Below, one piece after another: positions 16,241 through 36,815 of a stretch of DNA of 39,017 nucleotides. Positions within the stretch are counted from its first letter, which is position 1, and each line of letters starts with the position of its first letter. The DNA is from a phage, in the sequence record PZ168289.1; one strand, 5' to 3'. Below the pieces are notes generated by a model, which made no database searches, was not told the DNA's origin, and worked only from the letters and a program-made list of their open reading frames with translations. The translations under genes were made by a program, and so were the position numbers.

Positions 16241-16767
16241 CAATCGCAATCCTCAGCAGCCGCAGGGTCGAACACTACGTTATCGTTGATGTCTTCGACC
16301 TGCATGTGAAAACCTTCCTCATAGAGTTCTTTTGCACATGCAGTAGCCTCGTAAAGTGATACAGCTCCCTCAATTATCTCGCCTGTTCTAGTGTCAACTA
16401 CCCAATATTCAGCCTTTTCGTCTTCCTCTTCAGCCTTTTCGTCTGCCTCTTCATCCTCAAACCAGACCACATCCGAGCTATTAGACACGTCGTTATAAAG
16501 CGCCTCATAGATGCGAGCTTGCAGTATACGCGTTACATCCTTGGTATCAGGCATCAGCCCAGAATCTTCGAACTCGTGGTCTATACCATCAGCAGCCATT
16601 ACCGTGAAAATCTCGTGGTAATAGTGCGGAACATTACCGTCTACGACCTCATGCAGCGCATCGCTGTAGTCGTCTCCTTCAGCTATTTCGTCGTACTGAA
16701 TACGCTCGTTAAATGCCTTAACGGTTGCAGCCAGCAGGTCATAGTATGCGTTAGCGTTACGTTCCAT
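16240..16767 (-). CDS. Ocr-like DNA-mimic anti-restriction protein (T7 gp0.3 homolog) with C-terminal extension
   Basis: Residues ~24-95 align with T7 Ocr (YD.I...DD..DA.H...D..VPHYY..IF.VMA..GID.EFEDSGLMPDTKDV.RILQARIYE); very acidic; 175 aa vs 117 in T7. Confidence 0.85.
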   Translation of the reverse strand: MERNANAYYDLLAATVKAFNERIQYDEIAEGDDYSDALHEVVDGNVPHYYHEIFTVMAADGIDHEFEDSGLMPDTKDVTRILQARIYEALYNDVSNSSDVVWFEDEEADEKAEEEDEKAEYWVVDTRTGEIIEGAVSLYEATACAKELYEEGFHMQVEDINDNVVFDPAAAEDCD

Positions 16768-21409: not shown

Positions 21410-23410
21410 TTACCAGTAGTACCAGTCTCCTTTTCTACTTCTGACTAAAATAGAGCAATCGGCAACTGGTACTGTAGATACCCCACCAATCTTTATCTCA
21501 TACAGTTTACTAGGCAATCTTCGCTTAGTCAGAGATGCTTTAAAATCTGTACCAGTTACAGTGATATATTCCGTTCCATCCTCACTAGTTATCTGTAGTG
21601 CCAGGCCACTAGGACTTGCTGGCAACTTAACATAAAGCTGCTGTTCTGCTGTACTACCAGCGAAATGACCAATAACGGTAGTTGTCCACTCACTCAAAGT
21701 CAGCCCTGAACGCACAAAATCTACATTAAGGGGTTCCTTAATAAGTGCAGCAGGTGCATTGTAATTATGCCCGTTAAGTACATAGTAGTTGCTGCTACCA
21801 ACCTCTACTGTGTCTGCTGTGCAATAAGAGTGGAAGGTTTTTGCGTTATCAAAGCGATATAGGCTTCTGATTAGCACACGCTCTTGATTGCTTCTGGTTA
21901 AAATGCCACAACCTGCGGAAAGGTGGAGTGTGGAGATGGTAAGCGTATGACTTTCACTGTTGGCCTTGGATGACAGCAATGACACCTTGGGTTCACCCTC
22001 TTGAGTAAAGTCTTTACTATTACCCTCACAGTACATGATCCCAATGTCCCACGCAGCAGGGTCCATTGTTACCACCCCAGCACCAGCCGTATTCTCAGAG
22101 CAAATCACACCAACACTAGTAGATAAACCACGACCTAAGATAATACCAGCACCTATCGTATATTTACTCGCATCATCTGTGATTGGGTCATAACCTAGTC
22201 CCGTAGACTTATCTGTACCCCATGCACTAATGTGAGGGAAGTGTGTAGCATTTACATAGGTATCCCCTTGCTCACCTTCCGTTGAATAACCTAATGCCAT
22301 GCCCCTTGCACAGTTGTTTGCATGGAGAGTACCCATTTGAAAATACCAGCAAGCAAACATTACAATGCCATATCTATTAGCATTATATGCATAGATGCTA
22401 CCCATCTCGGATTCTGCACACATTAGTCGTGCGTAAAAACCATACGATGCAATATCTGCACAGTCTATGTTCAGACTACCAATCAAACGTAGCCCTCGTA
22501 CCTGGTTCTCAGTATTAGCTACATCAACGGTTGGGGTTCCAATAGGAAATTTACTAACACGAACAACAGATTTTAATGCGGGCCATGTAGGACCAATTGC
22601 TTTAATTGTTGCCCCATTTAGATTCCCACGTAGGTAAGAGGGAATAACAACCTCATCTGTTACGTGGTAGGTAGACTTGCCATCAAGGTTTAATGTGCCT
22701 GTAGCTATGGCCAATTTTATAGCAGGTAGACAGTCAAAGCTGGGGTCGTTCGGGATTGCCCCAAAGTTCTCAGGTGAGTGTTCATCAAGCCCATTCAGCT
22801 TACCTACGTTAGTCCAATTGGAATCAGGGGTTGAACCTGTAGGCACTGTTTTTGGGAGAGCACCATCCCAGCGGTAATAATAACCATCCTCTTCCCATAG
22901 CAGGACCTCGTTCCATAGTGTAACGTTGAAGCCTTTCTCGAAGGAGCTACGGGTAATATAGCCAATTAGACCAGCTTCCCTGATATTCGAAACTATTCGT
23001 CGTGCTTCGTCCTCGCTATCCTTAGCGTTGCCAGCAGAGATACCAGCAGCATCGGCATATTCCTTCGCTAAGTCAACAGTTTGGTCTCGCCCTTCTTCTG
23101 CAATATGGATAGCCTGAAGCTCTGAATTGGTCAGGTCACTAGCTGTCAACACTGAGCCATTCCTGAAGTCTACCACTAAGTCAGTTCCAGTCTGACGGTG
23201 AATACGAACGATATCGAAACCTGATTGGTCAACCAACATCTCAATCATCGTTGGATTAAGGAATCGGTAATCTCGACCAACTTCCAGTACACGGTTCAGG
23301 GCAGGGTTAGAGCTATTCACCAGCGTAACAACAACAAACGTTCTGGCTAGGTAGTCGAACTCAATCCTGTACCGAGTGTTTCCTGAAGGGAATTGTGTAA
23401 TCGTGGACAT
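21410..23410 (-). CDS. tail fiber / tailspike: T7 gp17-like N-terminal adaptor with divergent C-terminal receptor-binding domain
   Basis: N-terminal ~150 aa align with T7 gp17 ([37 protein letters not shown]); C-terminus differs and carries a GAIPNDP..D...I..AI motif typical of beta-helix depolymerase tailspikes. Confidence 0.88.
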
Positions 23411-23455
23411 TATGCCTCCTTTGTGATTTAAATGGAGACCTATGGTAGCGCCTCC

Positions 23456-23478
23456 GTTTCCTATAGTGATAGTTTAGT
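23456..23478 (-). promoter_or_regulatory. phage RNAP promoter (tail fiber upstream)
   Basis: Perfect core at 23460-23477; contains the gp16 TAA stop. Confidence 0.75.
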
Positions 23479-26400
23479 TCTTGATGTGGATGCCTTGCTC
23501 CTCAAACGTTCCAAGCAACAGCTTCTGGGTAATTGGGTCGTTCGGAACCAGCTCACGGAACGTATTATACATCCCGGTCATGTAGTCACGCTCGTTGACG
23601 CGAGTATCAGCCTTGAGGTAGCCAGCCAAGTTGTAAGCCGAAGCGCCAACGTTAGCAGCATATCCGAAAGCTGGAACCTGCTCCAAGAAGTTACCAACAA
23701 CATTCATAACAGGGTCACTTGTAGCCGCACCATACGCGATGGCACGTTCAGGCTGCTCTGTAGGCGAACGAGGTAGGATAGACGAACGGAGCATCTTAGT
23801 GTCCTCATACCCAGCGATGCCACCCAGAATGTTAGCTACCCCAAGTGGGCCACCCAGATGTGAACTACGGGACAGAGCCGCATATCCAATCATCGTCGGG
23901 TCCAGAGCTTGCTTGAGGTACTCACGGTCTCTGCCATCCTGCATAGCGTAAGCCTTGACGTGAGCCTGAGCCATGTAGTAGATACCAGCCAGACCCATAG
24001 ACATCACGGTAGATAGAGCAGCATCCATCGCTCGGTTGTTCTTCGTGGCGTTATAGAAGGTTCGCATGGTTCGCCCGTTGATGGACTTGATGACGAAGTT
24101 CTTAAACTGAAGGACAGTCTTAGCTAGAGGGCCATAAGCCTTGGCATCCATGTTTGACAGCTTGTGGGGCCGGAGTAACGTTTCGTCAGCGATGGTGTCA
24201 CCCATACGCCACAGGTCCATAGCCCTTGGGTCCTGACTGAACGCCTTCTTATCCTTGATGGTATACTTCCCGTCTGGACCACGAGTCACTGACTCACGGA
24301 TTAATGACTTAATGCCCTTCCACTGCTCGTCAGATATACCAGCGGTCTTCAGCCAGCGGTCATCGAACTTACGCTTACTACCAGTCAGGCTATGCTCCAC
24401 GATGTCAGACAGGAAGCCTTGACGTCCAGCATCTAACAGGTAGTTGGTCGTACCGTTGAGAACTTTAGTGAACGGAGAGCGTACTGCGAGTTCACCAGTG
24501 TAATACTTGGCAGTCCCCAGAGCTGTAGCTGTACCACGACCGAGGTCACTGTAAGACCGCAGACGGTCAATGACATCCTGTTTAGATGGGCGTATTGAGT
24601 CATCAAGTTCCTTACCAAAGATAACATTGTGCAGGTCCTTAATCTCTGAGGCCCCAACCTTCTTGTTACGGAAGGCTAGGTCACGGAAAATTGGGACTCC
24701 ATGCAGCATTGCACGAACGTTACCACGGGCCAGCATACCACCAATCTCCGTTAAGTTCTGAACACCCATATAGGCATTCTTAGCGAAGAACGATAGGTCT
24801 GTCATTGTGCGCATCACGGTAGCGAAGGCTGCATCGTCAGCACCATCACGTCGAGCACGACCAGTTAGAATCTTCAGGGTGTCACGCAAGGTAGATACTT
24901 CACCTTTCAACTTTCCGTCATCACCAGCCTTGTTCATCATGGTCTCAACCAAGTCCTTCATTTCTTTCGTTGTCTTGCCTGCACCAGCCATAATGGCAAT
25001 GTCACCATTAACTCGACGGTTGTATGCCGGGACAATCTTGTCCATGTCCCACTCCCGCAGGTTGTTGACACTGAAGGTTTGACCATTAGGAAGAACTATT
25101 GACATATCGCTGTCGAACAGGTTACGAGCCTCAAGGAAGCTGTTGTTCTCCAGACCAACCAGACCATTGATGTTCTCTTCCATTACGGATGAACGCTCGA
25201 ACTGCTCGGTGTGAGAGATACCATAAGCCTTATCGTTGGCGTACTTATCGACCGCAGCCGCAAGTCCTTCTGGAGTCAACGTAGGGTCAGCCTCTAAGAG
25301 TGCCTCGTCCACACGTTTCTTGACCTCAGGTCGAGACGCATAGCTGGTCAACCATGACTTCTTGATGGCCTCCTGCAACGCCTCTGGACTCCCAAGCTCC
25401 TTGATGTACAGCTCCTTCATCTGTTTGCTATACACATGAGGGACGTAGGTTCCCTTGAAGCGGCTACCCGGAAAGATAGACTGAGCGTCTGGCCGACCAA
25501 ACATAGCTGGGTTCTCCATCATCTCACGCTTGGCGTCAAACTGGTTCTTCAGTAGGTCATAGACTTTCAGTTCTCCCGGAGTCAGTTCAGCCTTCAGGTT
25601 TCCGCTACCATCTTCGATAGCCATAGACACACGCTGGTAGATGTCCTGACGGAATGCACCAGAGTCTCGCCAGAATGCTGTCTGGAAGTACGGGTCCTTT
25701 AGTGCCTCAGTAACCGCATCGTCGATGTCGTTGTATAACCGATGGTCCACAGCACGAAGTCTCTCGAATACGTCTGACGCAGTGGTCCCGATTTTACCTG
25801 AGGACCCTGATTGCATACCAGTCGGTGAACGTACTAAGTCAGCAGCTACTCCACGAATCTCAGGGTTCTCAGACCGAAGCAGCTTCAGACCAATCTCGGT
25901 AAGTCCACCAAGGTTCACACCAGCAGCGGCACGTTCAGGCTCAATCACTTCGTCAAAGACTTGACGTGTCTTAGGGTTCAGAGGGTTCTCACCAATCAGG
26001 ATTGAACCATCCTCCAGTCGTACACTACCCGGCTCATTCGGAACGTCAGCGAATTTAACGCCTTGATGACTAAAGGTCTGCTCACCTTCCTGAATAGGGA
26101 GACGAGACAGGTCCTGACCATCAACGTTACGAGCTGTCTCACGAGCTTCCAGACGTGTAGCTGGGCCAGCGAACTCATTAGTGTTGCGACCTAAGGCTCT
26201 GCCTAATCCATCAGCGATAGCAGTCATGCCCCCACCAAAGAGAGCACCGCCAAGGATAGCTTCAGCCACATGAGCATCACCACCAGCCACTGAGGTACGA
26301 GCCATCTCGGACACACCAGCCAGTGCTCCAGATTGAGCAGCCACGGTGAACATCTTGTTGACCAGCTTACCACCTTTACCAACCTGTCCAGCGATAGGAA

Positions 26401-33576: not shown

Positions 33577-33804
33577 TTAAATCATACTCATTAGGACGTA
33601 TCCTTCAGCGATGTCACCAACGTCAGCAATGTGGACAACCTTACGCGCTACCTGTTGTCCAGTATACCCGTTGTCCCATTCATTCAGGATAAGCCAATCG
33701 CCAACCTTAAAGTCCCGGTCGTTAAGTCTCAGCTCTGCTGTCTTTAGACCTAGTTGTACCGGACCAAAGTGCTGGCGGTGAATCTTCAGGTTGTGACTAG
33801 CCAT
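33577..33804 (-). CDS. ASCH/PUA-like small protein (DUF3850-type) inserted between tail tubular A and B genes
   Basis: 75 aa; pattern H.LKI....F..V..G.KT.E.R.NDRDFKVGDWL.L.E.D.G.YTG recalls ASCH-like DUF3850 proteins; GGGAGGG RBS; ATG overlaps gp11 stop (TAATG). Confidence 0.65.
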   Translation of the reverse strand: MASHNLKIHRQHFGPVQLGLKTAELRLNDRDFKVGDWLILNEWDNGYTGQQVARKVVHIADVGDIAEGYVLMSMI

Positions 33805-34370: not shown

Positions 34371-34485
34371 ACTCCCTCCTATCTGTCGTAAGGACTGCAT
34401 GGTCCGGTTAATAATATAGTCGCCCAGAAACTAACAAATAGTCCCAAGGCTGTAAGTAAGTAAAACATAATCATCCTCACTCTAA

Positions 34486-34527
34486 GCAAAAACCCCTCAA
34501 GCACCCGAAGGCACCCAAGGGGTTTCA
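34486..34527 (-). terminator. T-phi-like terminator after capsid gene 10B
   Basis: Minus RNA AACCCCUUGGGUGCC-UUCG-GGUGCUUGAGGGG-UUUUUG: 13-bp stem rich in G-U pairs, UUCG loop, U tract; immediately after the predicted 10B stop, as T-phi is in T7. Confidence 0.8.
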
Positions 34528-34528
34528 A

Positions 34529-35703
34529 TTAGTTGTTGGACTCAGCCAGTTTAGCGGCCCTGTTCGCAGCACGAGTACGCGCAGCTTTCTGTTGAGGAGT
34601 TAGAGTCTCCTCTTCAGGTACAGCCGCTACTGTAGCGACGTTAGGTTGGCTAAAGGCGCTTACATCGCTGGGCTGAAAACCAGTGCGCCCGCCGCTTCAG
34701 GACGCAGACCACCGTGACCCATAGCGTACTTACCAACAATCAGGTCACCCTGAGCATCGACATCACGGTCACGTTCCAGCGCCAAGTCACGCAGTTTCAC
34801 AGTACCCACAGCAGAACGGTGAGAGAACAGGCCCACAACGTTGTCAATAGCAACTTTAACGTCGCCAGAAGTAGTCGCTGGGAATGCGTGTTTCTGACCG
34901 GAAGCGATAGTGATACCATCGGCACCACGGGTCTCACCAGCACCACCCTGTACCAGATGCGGAACTTCAACAACAACGAAGCCCATCACGTTACGGATGT
35001 TACCAGTCTCTGGGTCAATCAGCGCAGCATAGTTAGCAGCGTTAGGCATCAGAGCCGCGAGGATTGCAGAGTAGTTGTCCGGCGTGGTGTAGAAGTAACG
35101 GTCGCCAGCAGGAACGTAGTTGGAGGTCAGCTTCGCACGAGCAATGGTCAGTTGACCGATGATTGCTTCGCCCAGTTTAGCCGGGGTGTCGAGGTCAGCT
35201 TTCTTACCAACTTGCAGTACGGAAGCAGTTCCAAGACCAGCGATGTTCTCGTTGGATGCAGCTGGGAGGTTACACAGGGTAGCCATTTCAGCCAGAACCG
35301 CACCATCAGCAGCTATAGCCAAAGCTTCACCCAACTGGTTGGAATACTCGCCAGCCACGTCATAGTGGTTCATCGCGTCTTCAATGTCGAAAATCATCAC
35401 ATCGGCAGTCAGCAGACCATCAATGGTAATCACTTTCTCGGTATGTTTGATACCTTTACGCTTATCGGACAGTCGCTCACCCGGAGCCAGATACACACCA
35501 GAGGTGCGACCCATGACCGGGAACTGAGCAGACTTACCGTTCTGAATGGTTCGGACAATATGCTTGTCAGCCGTTACAGAGCGGCGAGTGAATGCGGTCA
35601 GGACTTCGCCAGCAAATACCTTCAGGAACAACGCTAGAGCGTCGGAACTGGATTTGCCTTTACCTTGGTCTGTACCAATTTTCTGACCCGGAACGTTTGC
35701 CAT
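34529..35703 (-). CDS. minor capsid protein 10B, predicted product of -1 ribosomal frameshift at G GTT TTC
   Basis: Slippery heptamer GGTTTTC (plus 34675-34681) 6 codons before the 10A stop; the -1 frame stays open for 48 codons (QPSDVSAFSQPNVATVAAVPEEETLTPQQKAARTRAANRAAKLAESNN) and stops at 34529 just before the terminator hairpin. Confidence 0.65.
34660..35703 (-). CDS. major capsid protein 10A (T7 gp10A-like)
   Basis: 347 aa vs 345 in T7; downstream of a consensus phage promoter with ~100-nt leader; followed by frameshift site and T-phi-like terminator. Confidence 0.96.
   Translation of the reverse strand: MANVPGQKIGTDQGKGKSSSDALALFLKVFAGEVLTAFTRRSVTADKHIVRTIQNGKSAQFPVMGRTSGVYLAPGERLSDKRKGIKHTEKVITIDGLLTADVMIFDIEDAMNHYDVAGEYSNQLGEALAIAADGAVLAEMATLCNLPAASNENIAGLGTASVLQVGKKADLDTPAKLGEAIIGQLTIARAKLTSNYVPAGDRYFYTTPDNYSAILAALMPNAANYAALIDPETGNIRNVMGFVVVEVPHLVQGGAGETRGADGITIASGQKHAFPATTSGDVKVAIDNVVGLFSHRSAVGTVKLRDLALERDRDVDAQGDLIVGKYAMGHGGLRPEAAGALVFSPAM
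34675..34681 (-). other. -1 programmed ribosomal frameshift slippery site (G GTT TTC) in capsid gene
   Basis: Minus-strand GGTTTTC near the end of 10A, the same heptamer context as the T7 gene 10 frameshift; -1 frame open to 34529. Confidence 0.6.
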
Positions 35704-35805: not shown

Positions 35806-35828
35806 TCTCCCTATAGTGATAGTTTAGT
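35806..35828 (-). promoter_or_regulatory. phage RNAP promoter (major capsid upstream)
   Basis: Perfect core at 35810-35827; ~105-nt leader to capsid ATG 35703. Confidence 0.8.
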
Positions 35829-36792: not shown

Positions 36793-36815
36793 AGTTCCTA
36801 TAGTGATAGTTTAGG
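36793..36815 (-). promoter_or_regulatory. phage RNAP promoter (scaffold upstream)
   Basis: Perfect core at 36797-36814; contains the portal TAA stop; leader has hairpin CCGGG-AGTCTCA-CCCGG (36751-36767). Confidence 0.75.

What the first reader, a model, noticed from the sequence alone, without database searches (positions are those of the whole stretch)
34529..34681. Conserved -1 frameshift yielding a capsid 10B extension, followed by a T-phi-like terminator
The heptamer G GTT TTC occurs 6 codons before the 10A stop, and the -1 frame is open for exactly 48 codons, ending right at a T-phi-like hairpin (G-U-rich stem, UUCG loop, U tract). This reproduces the T7 10A/10B arrangement and is strong evidence that the late-region annotation is correct.
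Basis: partly seen in the sequence, partly recalled or inferred. Interest (0 to 1): 0.35.

Follow-up and report, generated by a model that had tools for sequence, protein, structure and literature searches.

The report
T7-type capsid 10A/10B frameshift site
This is the well-known ribosome-slippage site at the end of the major capsid gene of a T7-like (K1F-type) phage, which makes a minor, longer capsid protein and is followed by the usual late terminator; it is real but ordinary.

Summary
The heptamer G GTT TTC (34681..34675) is in X_XXY_YYZ phase in the 347-aa capsid gene (35703..34660), six codons before its stop. The -1 frame then runs 48 sense codons to a TAA (34531..34529). Six nucleotides later a 13-bp G·U-rich hairpin with a UUCG loop and a U tract begins (34522..34488).

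The window is a Kayfunavirus (K1F-like) genome. The tail is homologous to the T7 10B tail. Its substitutions fall on third positions of the -1 frame, and it has no start codon of its own. Across 71 distinct related loci, G/C-GTT-TTY in phase goes with a real tail in 33 of 35 cases. Loci with other Val-Phe codons have the terminator directly after the 10A stop, or use an A_AAG site instead.

The same 391-aa 10B is annotated as a joined CDS in phages Penshu1 and CR44b. It was used for GFP display in K1F (97% identical). No significant local stimulatory RNA structure was found.

The parts
34660..35703 (-). Gene 10A, major capsid protein, 347 aa, stop TAA at 34662..34660
   Evidence: ORF list. Pfam Gp10A-like PF21703, E 1.7e-105. 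Matches a 347-aa PDB chain, 9vvq (E 1.8e-215, residues 1-346), and T7 10A.
35810..35823 (-). Phage (K1F/T7-type) promoter core ACTATCACTATAGG upstream of gene 10 (phi10 equivalent)
   Evidence: Exact match to the promoter core. There are 14 matches at up to 3 mismatches against 3.4 expected; the 11 with at most 2 mismatches are all on the minus strand.
34697..34699 (-). TGA that closes the -1 frame 5 codons upstream of the heptamer; it limits entry into the -1 frame to an 11-codon zone
34675..34681 (-). Slippery heptamer G_GTT_TTC (Val342-Phe343), in X_XXY_YYZ phase
   Evidence: Invariant in all 34 distinct related sequences that carry GGTTTTC, while flanking wobble positions vary.
34529..34675 (-). 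-1 frame part of 10B: 48 sense codons plus TAA (34531..34529). It has no ATG/GTG/TTG of its own. 10B is 391 aa.
   Evidence: No ORF is listed in this frame. Homology to the T7 10B tail. Third-position substitution pattern.
34488..34526 (-). Tphi-like intrinsic terminator for the phage RNA polymerase: core stem 34522..34493, UUCG loop 34509..34506, U tract 34492..34488, A-run/U-run extension up to 34526
   Evidence: Fold dG -26.9, z -4.68. Hit in the pattern scan. Conserved with covariation in 20 distinct relatives. Annotated as a terminator in ASO2B and Penshu1.

Best explanation
The window is a K1F-like (Kayfunavirus) T7-family phage genome.

**Proposed mechanism**
- Late mRNA made by the phage RNA polymerase from the phi9/phi10 promoters carries gene 10.
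- Most ribosomes read to the 10A stop and make the 347-aa major capsid protein.
- A minority slip back one nucleotide on G_GUU_UUC. The A-site tRNA-Phe re-pairs from UUC to UUU. The P-site tRNA-Val re-pairs from GUU to GGU.
- These ribosomes continue in the -1 frame for 48 codons and make a 391-aa minor capsid protein, 10B, whose tail is displayed on the capsid.
- The 10B stop lies 6 nt before a Tphi-type hairpin and U tract, which ends most late gene-10 transcripts.

**Shown here**
- The sequence anatomy.
- Homology of the tail to T7 10B.
- Purifying selection on the -1 frame.
- Absence of an independent start codon.
- Co-occurrence of the slippery codons with a tail.
- Conservation of the hairpin.

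**Inferred from T7 and K1F work**
- That slippage is ribosomal.
- That its level is of the order of 10%.
- That 10B is assembled into virions.
- That the terminator's CCCC contributes to frameshifting from a distance.
For: **Anatomy.**

**Homology.** The tail aligns with the T7 10B tail at 23/36 identities, pairwise E 5e-11.

**Selection on the -1 frame.** Over the 23-codon block ETLTPQQKAARTRAANRAAKLAE, window versus T7 shows 5/4/15 differences at codon positions 1/2/3 of the -1 frame. That is 12 synonymous against 5 non-synonymous codon changes. In each of the other two frames the count is 2 against 16. The two T3-like loci give the same picture.

**No own start.** The -1 ORF has no ATG/GTG/TTG, so it can only be reached from 10A.

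**Co-occurrence across 71 distinct loci.**
- G/C-GTT-TTY in phase: 33 of 35 have a tail of at least 40 codons that stops 25-60 nt before the terminator U tract.
- Other Val-Phe codons: 4 of 22 have such a tail (Fisher p = 3.6e-9), and those four carry an in-phase A_AAG two codons later.
- Loci without a slip site have the terminator 40-56 nt after the 10A stop in most cases.

**Terminator.** 6 of 11 consensus pairs show double-sided changes.

**Close relatives.**
- Penshu1 and CR44b annotate joined 10B CDSs of 1175 nt, which is 391 aa.
- The window's 10B is 96.2% identical to Penshu1, 95.7% to CR44b and 97.2% to K1F.
- K1F g10b::gfp phages are stable and fluorescent (PMC6277420).
- Kvp1 10B was shown by mass spectrometry at TTTTCA (PMC2579914).

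**Review literature.** PMC5009743 lists G_GU in T7 gene 10 and the involvement of a CCCC in the terminator.
Against: No experiment exists for this particular genome.

No significant local stimulatory structure follows the heptamer. The 60 nt downstream give z = -0.88. K1F-type relatives range from z = +0.9 to -1.9, and K1F itself lacks the 8-bp hairpin predicted in some relatives.

There is no conserved upstream Shine-Dalgarno-like element. GGCGGG in the window corresponds to GCTGGC or GCAGGC in relatives.

One close relative, vB_EcoP_F (L010), carries a 1-nt deletion that puts the tail out of the -1 frame. So 10B may be dispensable, or that record may contain an error.

The heptamer's P-site re-pairing (GUU to GGU) is imperfect.
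Confidence: 0.9

Rival explanations
1. The -1 ORF is an inherited relic. The heptamer and tail persist by descent from a T7-like ancestor, but frameshifting is negligible or without function in this phage.
For: In vB_EcoP_F (L010) a 1-nt deletion breaks the tail's frame, yet the phage was isolated as viable. No local stimulator was detected. Many Studiervirinae lack any tail.
Against: Substitutions concentrate on -1 frame third positions. The heptamer is invariant while its neighbours vary. Whole tail cassettes have been exchanged, always keeping frame and slip site. The K1F g10b::gfp fusion is expressed and carried by virions.
Confidence: 0.05
2. The longer product arises by transcriptional slippage. 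The phage RNA polymerase would add one U in the U4 run, and normal translation of the edited mRNA would follow.
For: The site contains a run of four T, and a one-base insertion in the mRNA would give the same downstream frame.
Against: Four bases is far shorter than the runs known to support polymerase slippage (established knowledge). The requirement for the G before GTT and for the phase, seen across lineages, is what tandem tRNA re-pairing predicts, not polymerase slippage. The T7 site is classed as ribosomal in PMC5009743.
Confidence: 0.03
3. The interval 34529-34659 is a separate small gene, or merely a spacer before the terminator, unrelated to gene 10.
For: It lies after the 10A stop, and most GenBank records of relatives annotate nothing there.
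Against: There is no ATG/GTG/TTG in the frame that is under selection. Lineages without a slip site have no such interval at all, with the terminator 40-56 nt after the 10A stop.
Confidence: 0.01

Closest known systems
Bacteriophage T7 gene 10A/10B programmed -1 frameshift (NC_001604, 10B = join 22967..24162) with terminator Tphi
   Same: - Identical heptamer G_GTT_TTC in the same Val-Phe position of a homologous capsid gene.
- Homologous tail core (EETLTP.Q.AARTRAAN).
- The 10B stop lies just before a hairpin whose base (AACCCCTTGGG...CTTGAGGGGTTTTT) is identical to Tphi.
   Different: - The tail is 48 codons after the slip rather than 56.
- The shift site lies about 155 nt from the terminator CCCC rather than more than 200 nt.
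- The apical part of the hairpin differs (UUCG tetraloop).
- 10B is 69% identical overall.
Kayfunavirus 10B: K1F g10b (PMC6277420), and the annotated joined CDSs of Penshu1 (QEG09807.1) and CR44b (YP_009007173.1)
   Same: Same genus, same heptamer, same 391-aa product, same terminator sequence, and 96-97% protein identity.
   Different: A few residue changes in the tail (for example D/G, A/T and V/A). The window has a different insert after the terminator.
Kvp1 / phiA1122-type (poly-U, Phe) versus T3 / phiYeO3-12-type (lysyl, A_AAG) capsid frameshift sites
   Same: The window belongs to the poly-U/Phe class, which was confirmed by mass spectrometry in Kvp1.
   Different: The lysyl class uses another site. 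It was seen here in the Big_2-tailed relatives (ACA AAG G, GCA AAG G).
Canonical bacterial -1 frameshift cassettes (dnaX, IS elements): heptamer plus upstream Shine-Dalgarno plus downstream hairpin or pseudoknot
   Same: Tandem-slippage heptamer in phase.
   Different: No conserved upstream SD-like element and no significant hairpin at a 5-9 nt spacing in the K1F-type sequences. In T7 an unexplained distal element in the terminator is involved.

Membership tests
T7-type gene 10 -1 programmed ribosomal frameshift (10A/10B) | The host gene is a T7-family major capsid protein | tested here: met
   Pfam Gp10A-like PF21703, E 1.7e-105. PDB T7 10A hit, E 3.8e-146.
T7-type gene 10 -1 programmed ribosomal frameshift (10A/10B) | Heptamer G_GUU_UUC in X_XXY_YYZ phase a few codons before the 10A stop | tested here: met
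   34681..34675 (-), phase 2, 6 codons before the stop. It is the only in-phase copy on the coding strand; the copy at 16314 is out of phase.
T7-type gene 10 -1 programmed ribosomal frameshift (10A/10B) | A -1 ORF without its own start codon, open across the site and extending past the 10A stop | tested here: met
   The frame is open from 34696 to 34532, with 48 codons after the slip and no ATG/GTG/TTG.
T7-type gene 10 -1 programmed ribosomal frameshift (10A/10B) | A tail homologous to T7 10B and evolving as coding sequence in the -1 frame | tested here: met
   BLASTP 64% over 36 aa, E 5e-11. 12 synonymous against 5 non-synonymous codon changes in the -1 frame, compared with 2 against 16 in the other frames.
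T7-type gene 10 -1 programmed ribosomal frameshift (10A/10B) | Distal element: a CCCC within the transcription terminator 3' of the site | tested here: inconclusive
   A CCCC is present at 34522..34519 in the terminator, but every relative has it, with or without a tail. Its role cannot be tested in silico. The T7 fact comes from PMC5009743.
T7-type gene 10 -1 programmed ribosomal frameshift (10A/10B) | A 10B protein made at roughly a tenth of 10A and present in virions | not testable with these tools
   Only indirect support: K1F g10b::gfp virions are fluorescent, and Kvp1 10B was seen by mass spectrometry.
Tphi-type (class I) terminator of T7-like RNA polymerases | A stable G+C-rich hairpin immediately followed by a U run, downstream of gene 10 on the late transcript | tested here: met
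   dG -26.9, z -4.68, U5 tract. Phage promoters lie upstream at 35823 and 36810. The stem base is identical to T7 Tphi.
Tphi-type (class I) terminator of T7-like RNA polymerases | The structure, rather than the sequence, is conserved among relatives | tested here: met
   In 20 distinct sequences, 6 of 11 pairs show compensatory double changes.
Tphi-type (class I) terminator of T7-like RNA polymerases | Termination by the phage polymerase in vitro or in vivo | not testable with these tools
   No transcript data were available.
dnaX/IS-type cassette (upstream SD plus downstream hairpin or pseudoknot at 5-9 nt) | A significant, conserved local stimulatory structure or SD-like element | tested here: not met
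   The 60 nt downstream give z -0.88 in the window and +0.9 to -1.9 in K1F-type relatives. The upstream GGCGGG is not conserved.

The most novel reading that the evidence does not exclude
In the K1F lineage the frameshift may work without any local RNA stimulator. It would then depend, as reported but never explained for T7, on the terminator hairpin that always sits within about 10 nt of the 10B stop. On this reading Tphi would be a dual-purpose element: a transcription terminator and a distal modulator of how much 10B is made. The fixed 'slip site ... terminator' frame would also be what allows tail cassettes of 48 to 470 codons to be swapped in and out.
Probability: 0.2. Interest if true: 0.4.

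Novelty: already known. Interest (0 to 1): 0.1.

Why it matters
It confirms the late-gene layout of this genome (phi10, gene 10A/10B, Tphi, gene 11). It also means an annotation should carry a joined 10B CDS, which most GenBank records of this genus omit.

In practice the 10B tail is the natural display site on T7/K1F capsids. For biology, the comparative picture (slippery codons present exactly where a tail exists, synonymous non-slippery codons where it does not) illustrates selection on a recoding signal. It adds nothing new in kind.

Tried and rejected
- **Local stimulatory hairpin or pseudoknot.** Folding the 145 nt after the heptamer gave z = -2.0. Folding 60-nt segments from 29 distinct relatives gave no consistent structure for the K1F type. 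An 8-bp hairpin (AGCGAUGU/ACGUCGCU) with a 5-nt spacer is predicted in the longer window folds. It is kept through one-sided G·U changes in several relatives but broken in K1F, and it shows no double compensation, so I do not claim it.
- **Upstream SD-like stimulator.** Not conserved.
- **Long-range pairing of the terminator CCCC with a G run near the site.** T7 has GGGGG 17 nt after the heptamer, but the K1F-type sequences have none (inspection). There is no conserved partner.
- **Rfam.** No family reached its gathering score anywhere in the window.
- **Pfam on the 48-aa tail.** Nothing found.
- **PDB.** No solved chain includes a 10B tail.
- **Original T7 frameshift papers** (PMC209055, PMC328964, PMC5952207). 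Not held in the library. T7 facts are taken from the review PMC5009743 and from PMC1635266.
- **SGNH-hydrolase idea for the 470-codon tail of L038.** No Pfam or PDB support.
- **Chance argument from the heptamer or the open frame alone.** Rejected as insufficient.

Full report
**1. What is in the sequence**

The feature is on the minus strand. The capsid gene runs 35703..34660 (-) and encodes 347 aa. It matches Pfam Gp10A-like (PF21703, E 1.7e-105) and solved T7-family capsid chains.

Its 3' end on the coding strand reads GCA CTG GTT TTC AGC CCA GCG ATG TAA. The heptamer GGTTTTC occupies 34681..34675. Its first base is the third base of codon 341, which gives the phase G_GTT_TTC, and GTT is the sixth codon before the stop.

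The -1 frame is closed by a TGA at 34699..34697, five codons upstream of the heptamer. So the -1 frame can only be entered within an 11-codon zone. After a slip on GTT TTC the next codon is CAG, and 48 sense codons follow: QPSDVSAFSQPNVATVAAVPEEETLTPQQKAARTRAANRAAKLAESNN. They end at a TAA at 34531..34529. The product is 343 + 48 = 391 aa.

Six nucleotides further on, a hairpin starts. Its core is CCCCUUGGGUGCC-UUCG-GGUGCUUGAGGGG, with 5 G·U among 13 pairs, and UUUUU follows. With the flanking A and U runs the fold gives -26.9 kcal/mol and z = -4.68. The simple terminator scan also reports it.

The coordinates 34529-34681 bracket the heptamer-to-stop span exactly. The terminator (34526..34488) lies just outside them.

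**2. Is it more than chance?**

Not on the single-sequence evidence. GGTTTTC occurs four times on the two strands, about the number expected from length alone. A -1 frame that stays open at least 44 codons past a stop is seen for 14 of 34 large ORFs in this tightly packed genome, usually because it is the next gene's frame.

Gene 10 is, however, the only ORF with an in-phase slippery heptamer inside the overlap zone. The other coding-strand copy, at 16314, is out of phase.

The weight comes from comparison with relatives.

**3. Context**

The window is a complete, permuted, reverse-complemented genome of a K1F-like phage (genus Kayfunavirus). The best GenBank matches are about 93-96% identical. 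One IMG/VR contig (L024) has an identical 10A.

Phage promoter cores (ACTATCACTATAGG) lie on the minus strand at 36810 (before gene 9), 35823 (before gene 10) and 31180 (before gene 13). This gives the T7 layout phi10, gene 10, terminator, genes 11-12.

**4. Comparative evidence that the -1 frame is translated**

- **Homology.** The tail aligns with the T7 10B tail (23/36 identities, pairwise E 5e-11).
- **Codon-position pattern.** Over the conserved 23-codon block, window versus T7 differs at 5, 4 and 15 sites in codon positions 1, 2 and 3 of the -1 frame. That is 12 synonymous against 5 non-synonymous codon changes. Read in either other frame, the same differences give 2 against 16. Two T3-like loci give the same result.
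- **No own start.** The ORF has no ATG, GTG or TTG, so it can only be reached from 10A.
- **Co-occurrence with the slippery codons.** I examined 71 distinct sequences from 78 IMG/VR loci and GenBank records.
  - A G or C followed by GTT TTY in phase goes with a genuine tail in 33 of 35 cases. I counted a tail as genuine if it has at least 40 codons and its -1 stop lies 25-60 nt before the terminator U tract.
  - The two exceptions are a 1-nt deletion (L010, phage vB_EcoP_F) and a deletion that removes half the terminator (L013).
  - Where Val-Phe is encoded by GTC TTC, GTA TTC or GTG TTC/TTT, a tail is present in only 4 of 22 cases (Fisher p = 3.6e-9). Those four carry an in-phase A_AAG two codons downstream, the lysyl-type site known from T3 and phiYeO3-12.
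  - The sequences are related, so the p-value overstates independence. The pattern does recur over at least five unrelated tail types.
- **Terminator position.** In lineages without a slip site the terminator follows the 10A stop by 40-56 nt in most cases. With a slip site it follows the -1 stop by 36-47 nt, whether the tail has 42 codons or 471.
- **Wobble positions.** Around the heptamer they vary freely (CGT/CGC, CCT/CCA, GCG/GCT/GCA), while CTG GTT TTC does not vary in the tail-bearing group.

**5. The terminator**

Twenty distinct versions from relatives fold into the same hairpin. Six of the eleven consensus pairs show changes on both sides that keep the pair. The base of the stem and the U tract (AACCCCTTGGG...CTTGAGGGGTTTTT) are identical to T7 Tphi, and only the apical part differs. 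Records for ASO2B and Penshu1 annotate it as a terminator. Rfam has no family for it, and no Rfam family reached its gathering score anywhere in the window.

**6. Mechanism**

The best-supported reading is tandem -1 slippage of tRNA-Val (GUU to GGU) and tRNA-Phe (UUC to UUU) on G_GUU_UUC. The review PMC5009743 cites G_GU in T7 gene 10 as a tolerated departure from X_XX. About 10% frameshifting is quoted for T7 in PMC1635266.

I looked for stimulators and found none I would defend.
- The 60 nt after the heptamer fold no better than shuffles (z = -0.88). K1F-type relatives range from +0.9 to -1.9.
- An 8-bp hairpin with a 5-nt spacer appears in the longer window folds but is broken in K1F.
- The upstream G-rich stretch is not conserved.

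For T7 the review states that a CCCC in the terminator, more than 200 nt 3' of the site, is involved, and calls this unexplained. The window keeps that CCCC about 155 nt downstream of the shift site. Every relative has it, with or without a tail, so its presence says nothing.

**7. Comparison with what is known**

The feature is already described for this genus.
- Penshu1 (MK903281) and CR44b (NC_023576) carry joined 10B CDSs of 1175 nt, which is 391 aa, the same as here.
- The window's 10B is 96.2% identical to Penshu1, 95.7% to CR44b, 97.2% to K1F and 69.1% to T7.
- For K1F, the -1 frameshift 'adding 44 triplets' (391 minus 347) is described. A GFP fusion to the end of g10b gave stable fluorescent phages (PMC6277420).
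- In Kvp1 the 10B product of a TTTTCA site was shown by mass spectrometry.
- Most other records of the genus annotate only 10A, or label the 10A ORF 'minor capsid protein'.

**8. Rivals**

- **A relic without function.** This is contradicted by the selection pattern and by the K1F fusion. It draws some support from vB_EcoP_F, where the frame is broken.
- **Transcriptional slippage on four U.** This is unlikely given the short run, and given the dependence on phase and on the preceding G.
- **An independent gene.** This is excluded by the absence of a start codon.

**9. Verdict**

Observation confirmed. Interpretation supported. The feature is a known one in a phage of a genus where it has been annotated and exploited. 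Interest is low.

Noticed in passing
window 34379-34474 (-): A 31-aa hydrophobic ORF (MIMFYLLTALGLFVSFWATILLTGPCSPYDR), with GAGG just upstream, sits in a roughly 95-nt insert between the terminator and gene 11. It is nearly identical in BUCT788, vB_EcoP_F, phiYIO1-1 and L013, and it is not annotated in BUCT788 or phiYIO1-1, the two of these whose annotation I checked. Penshu1 and L024 carry a different 40-aa Cys-rich ORF in the same slot. There is too little variation to test for selection.
   Followed up: partly
window 33577-33804 (-): A 75-aa DUF3850/ASCH-domain gene lies between tail genes 11 and 12 (Pfam E 1.9e-19). CR44b annotates it as '11.05 RNA-binding protein'. K1F and BUCT788 lack it, with gene 12 abutting gene 11 there.
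   Followed up: partly
whole window: The window looks like one complete Kayfunavirus genome of about 39 kb, reverse-complemented and circularly permuted. All large ORFs, and the 11 promoter-core matches with at most 2 mismatches, are on the minus strand. The gene order runs 8-9-10-...-19 and then the early genes.
   Followed up: partly
L010 (vB_EcoP_F, IMGVR_UViG_2974615076_000001), about 2540-2560: A 1-nt deletion at the 10A stop (GCG TAG instead of GCG GCG TAA G) puts the otherwise intact 10B tail out of the -1 frame. This is either a sequencing error or a natural 10B knockout.
   Followed up: no
L013 (IMGVR_UViG_2974604219_000001), downstream of 2550: A deletion removes the end of the long 10B tail and the 5' arm of the terminator. 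The -1 frame then runs in frame into the small hydrophobic ORF.
   Followed up: no
related loci L011-L023, L026-L028, L032, L040, L045, L049-L052, L055, L061, L065, L070, L074, L075: Between the conserved slip site and the conserved terminator, the 10B tail is an exchangeable cassette. I saw four types: a 48-aa T7-type tail, a roughly 92-aa domain with no Pfam hit (many Kayfunaviruses), a single Big_2 Ig-like domain (PF02368, E 4.6e-15), and a tail about twice that length in L051. Capsids 95-98% identical to the window's carry different cassettes.
   Followed up: partly
L038 (IMGVR_UViG_3300034349_000001), 1263-2680: G_GTT_TTT is followed by a 470-codon -1 tail: a Big_2 domain, then about 390 aa with no Pfam or PDB sequence match, ending right at the terminator. 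GDS / GTNN / DGTH motifs are visible by eye only. This is an unusually large frameshift-added capsid appendage.
   Followed up: partly
L009 and L039, first 60 nt after the heptamer: The T3-like relatives have a strong hairpin starting 7 nt after GGTTTTC (z = -4.2 and -2.2), with differences on both arms. The K1F-type sequences have nothing comparable. The L009 capsid is 98% identical to the window's but switches to the T3-type C-terminus and tail near the slip site, which suggests a recombination breakpoint there.
   Followed up: no
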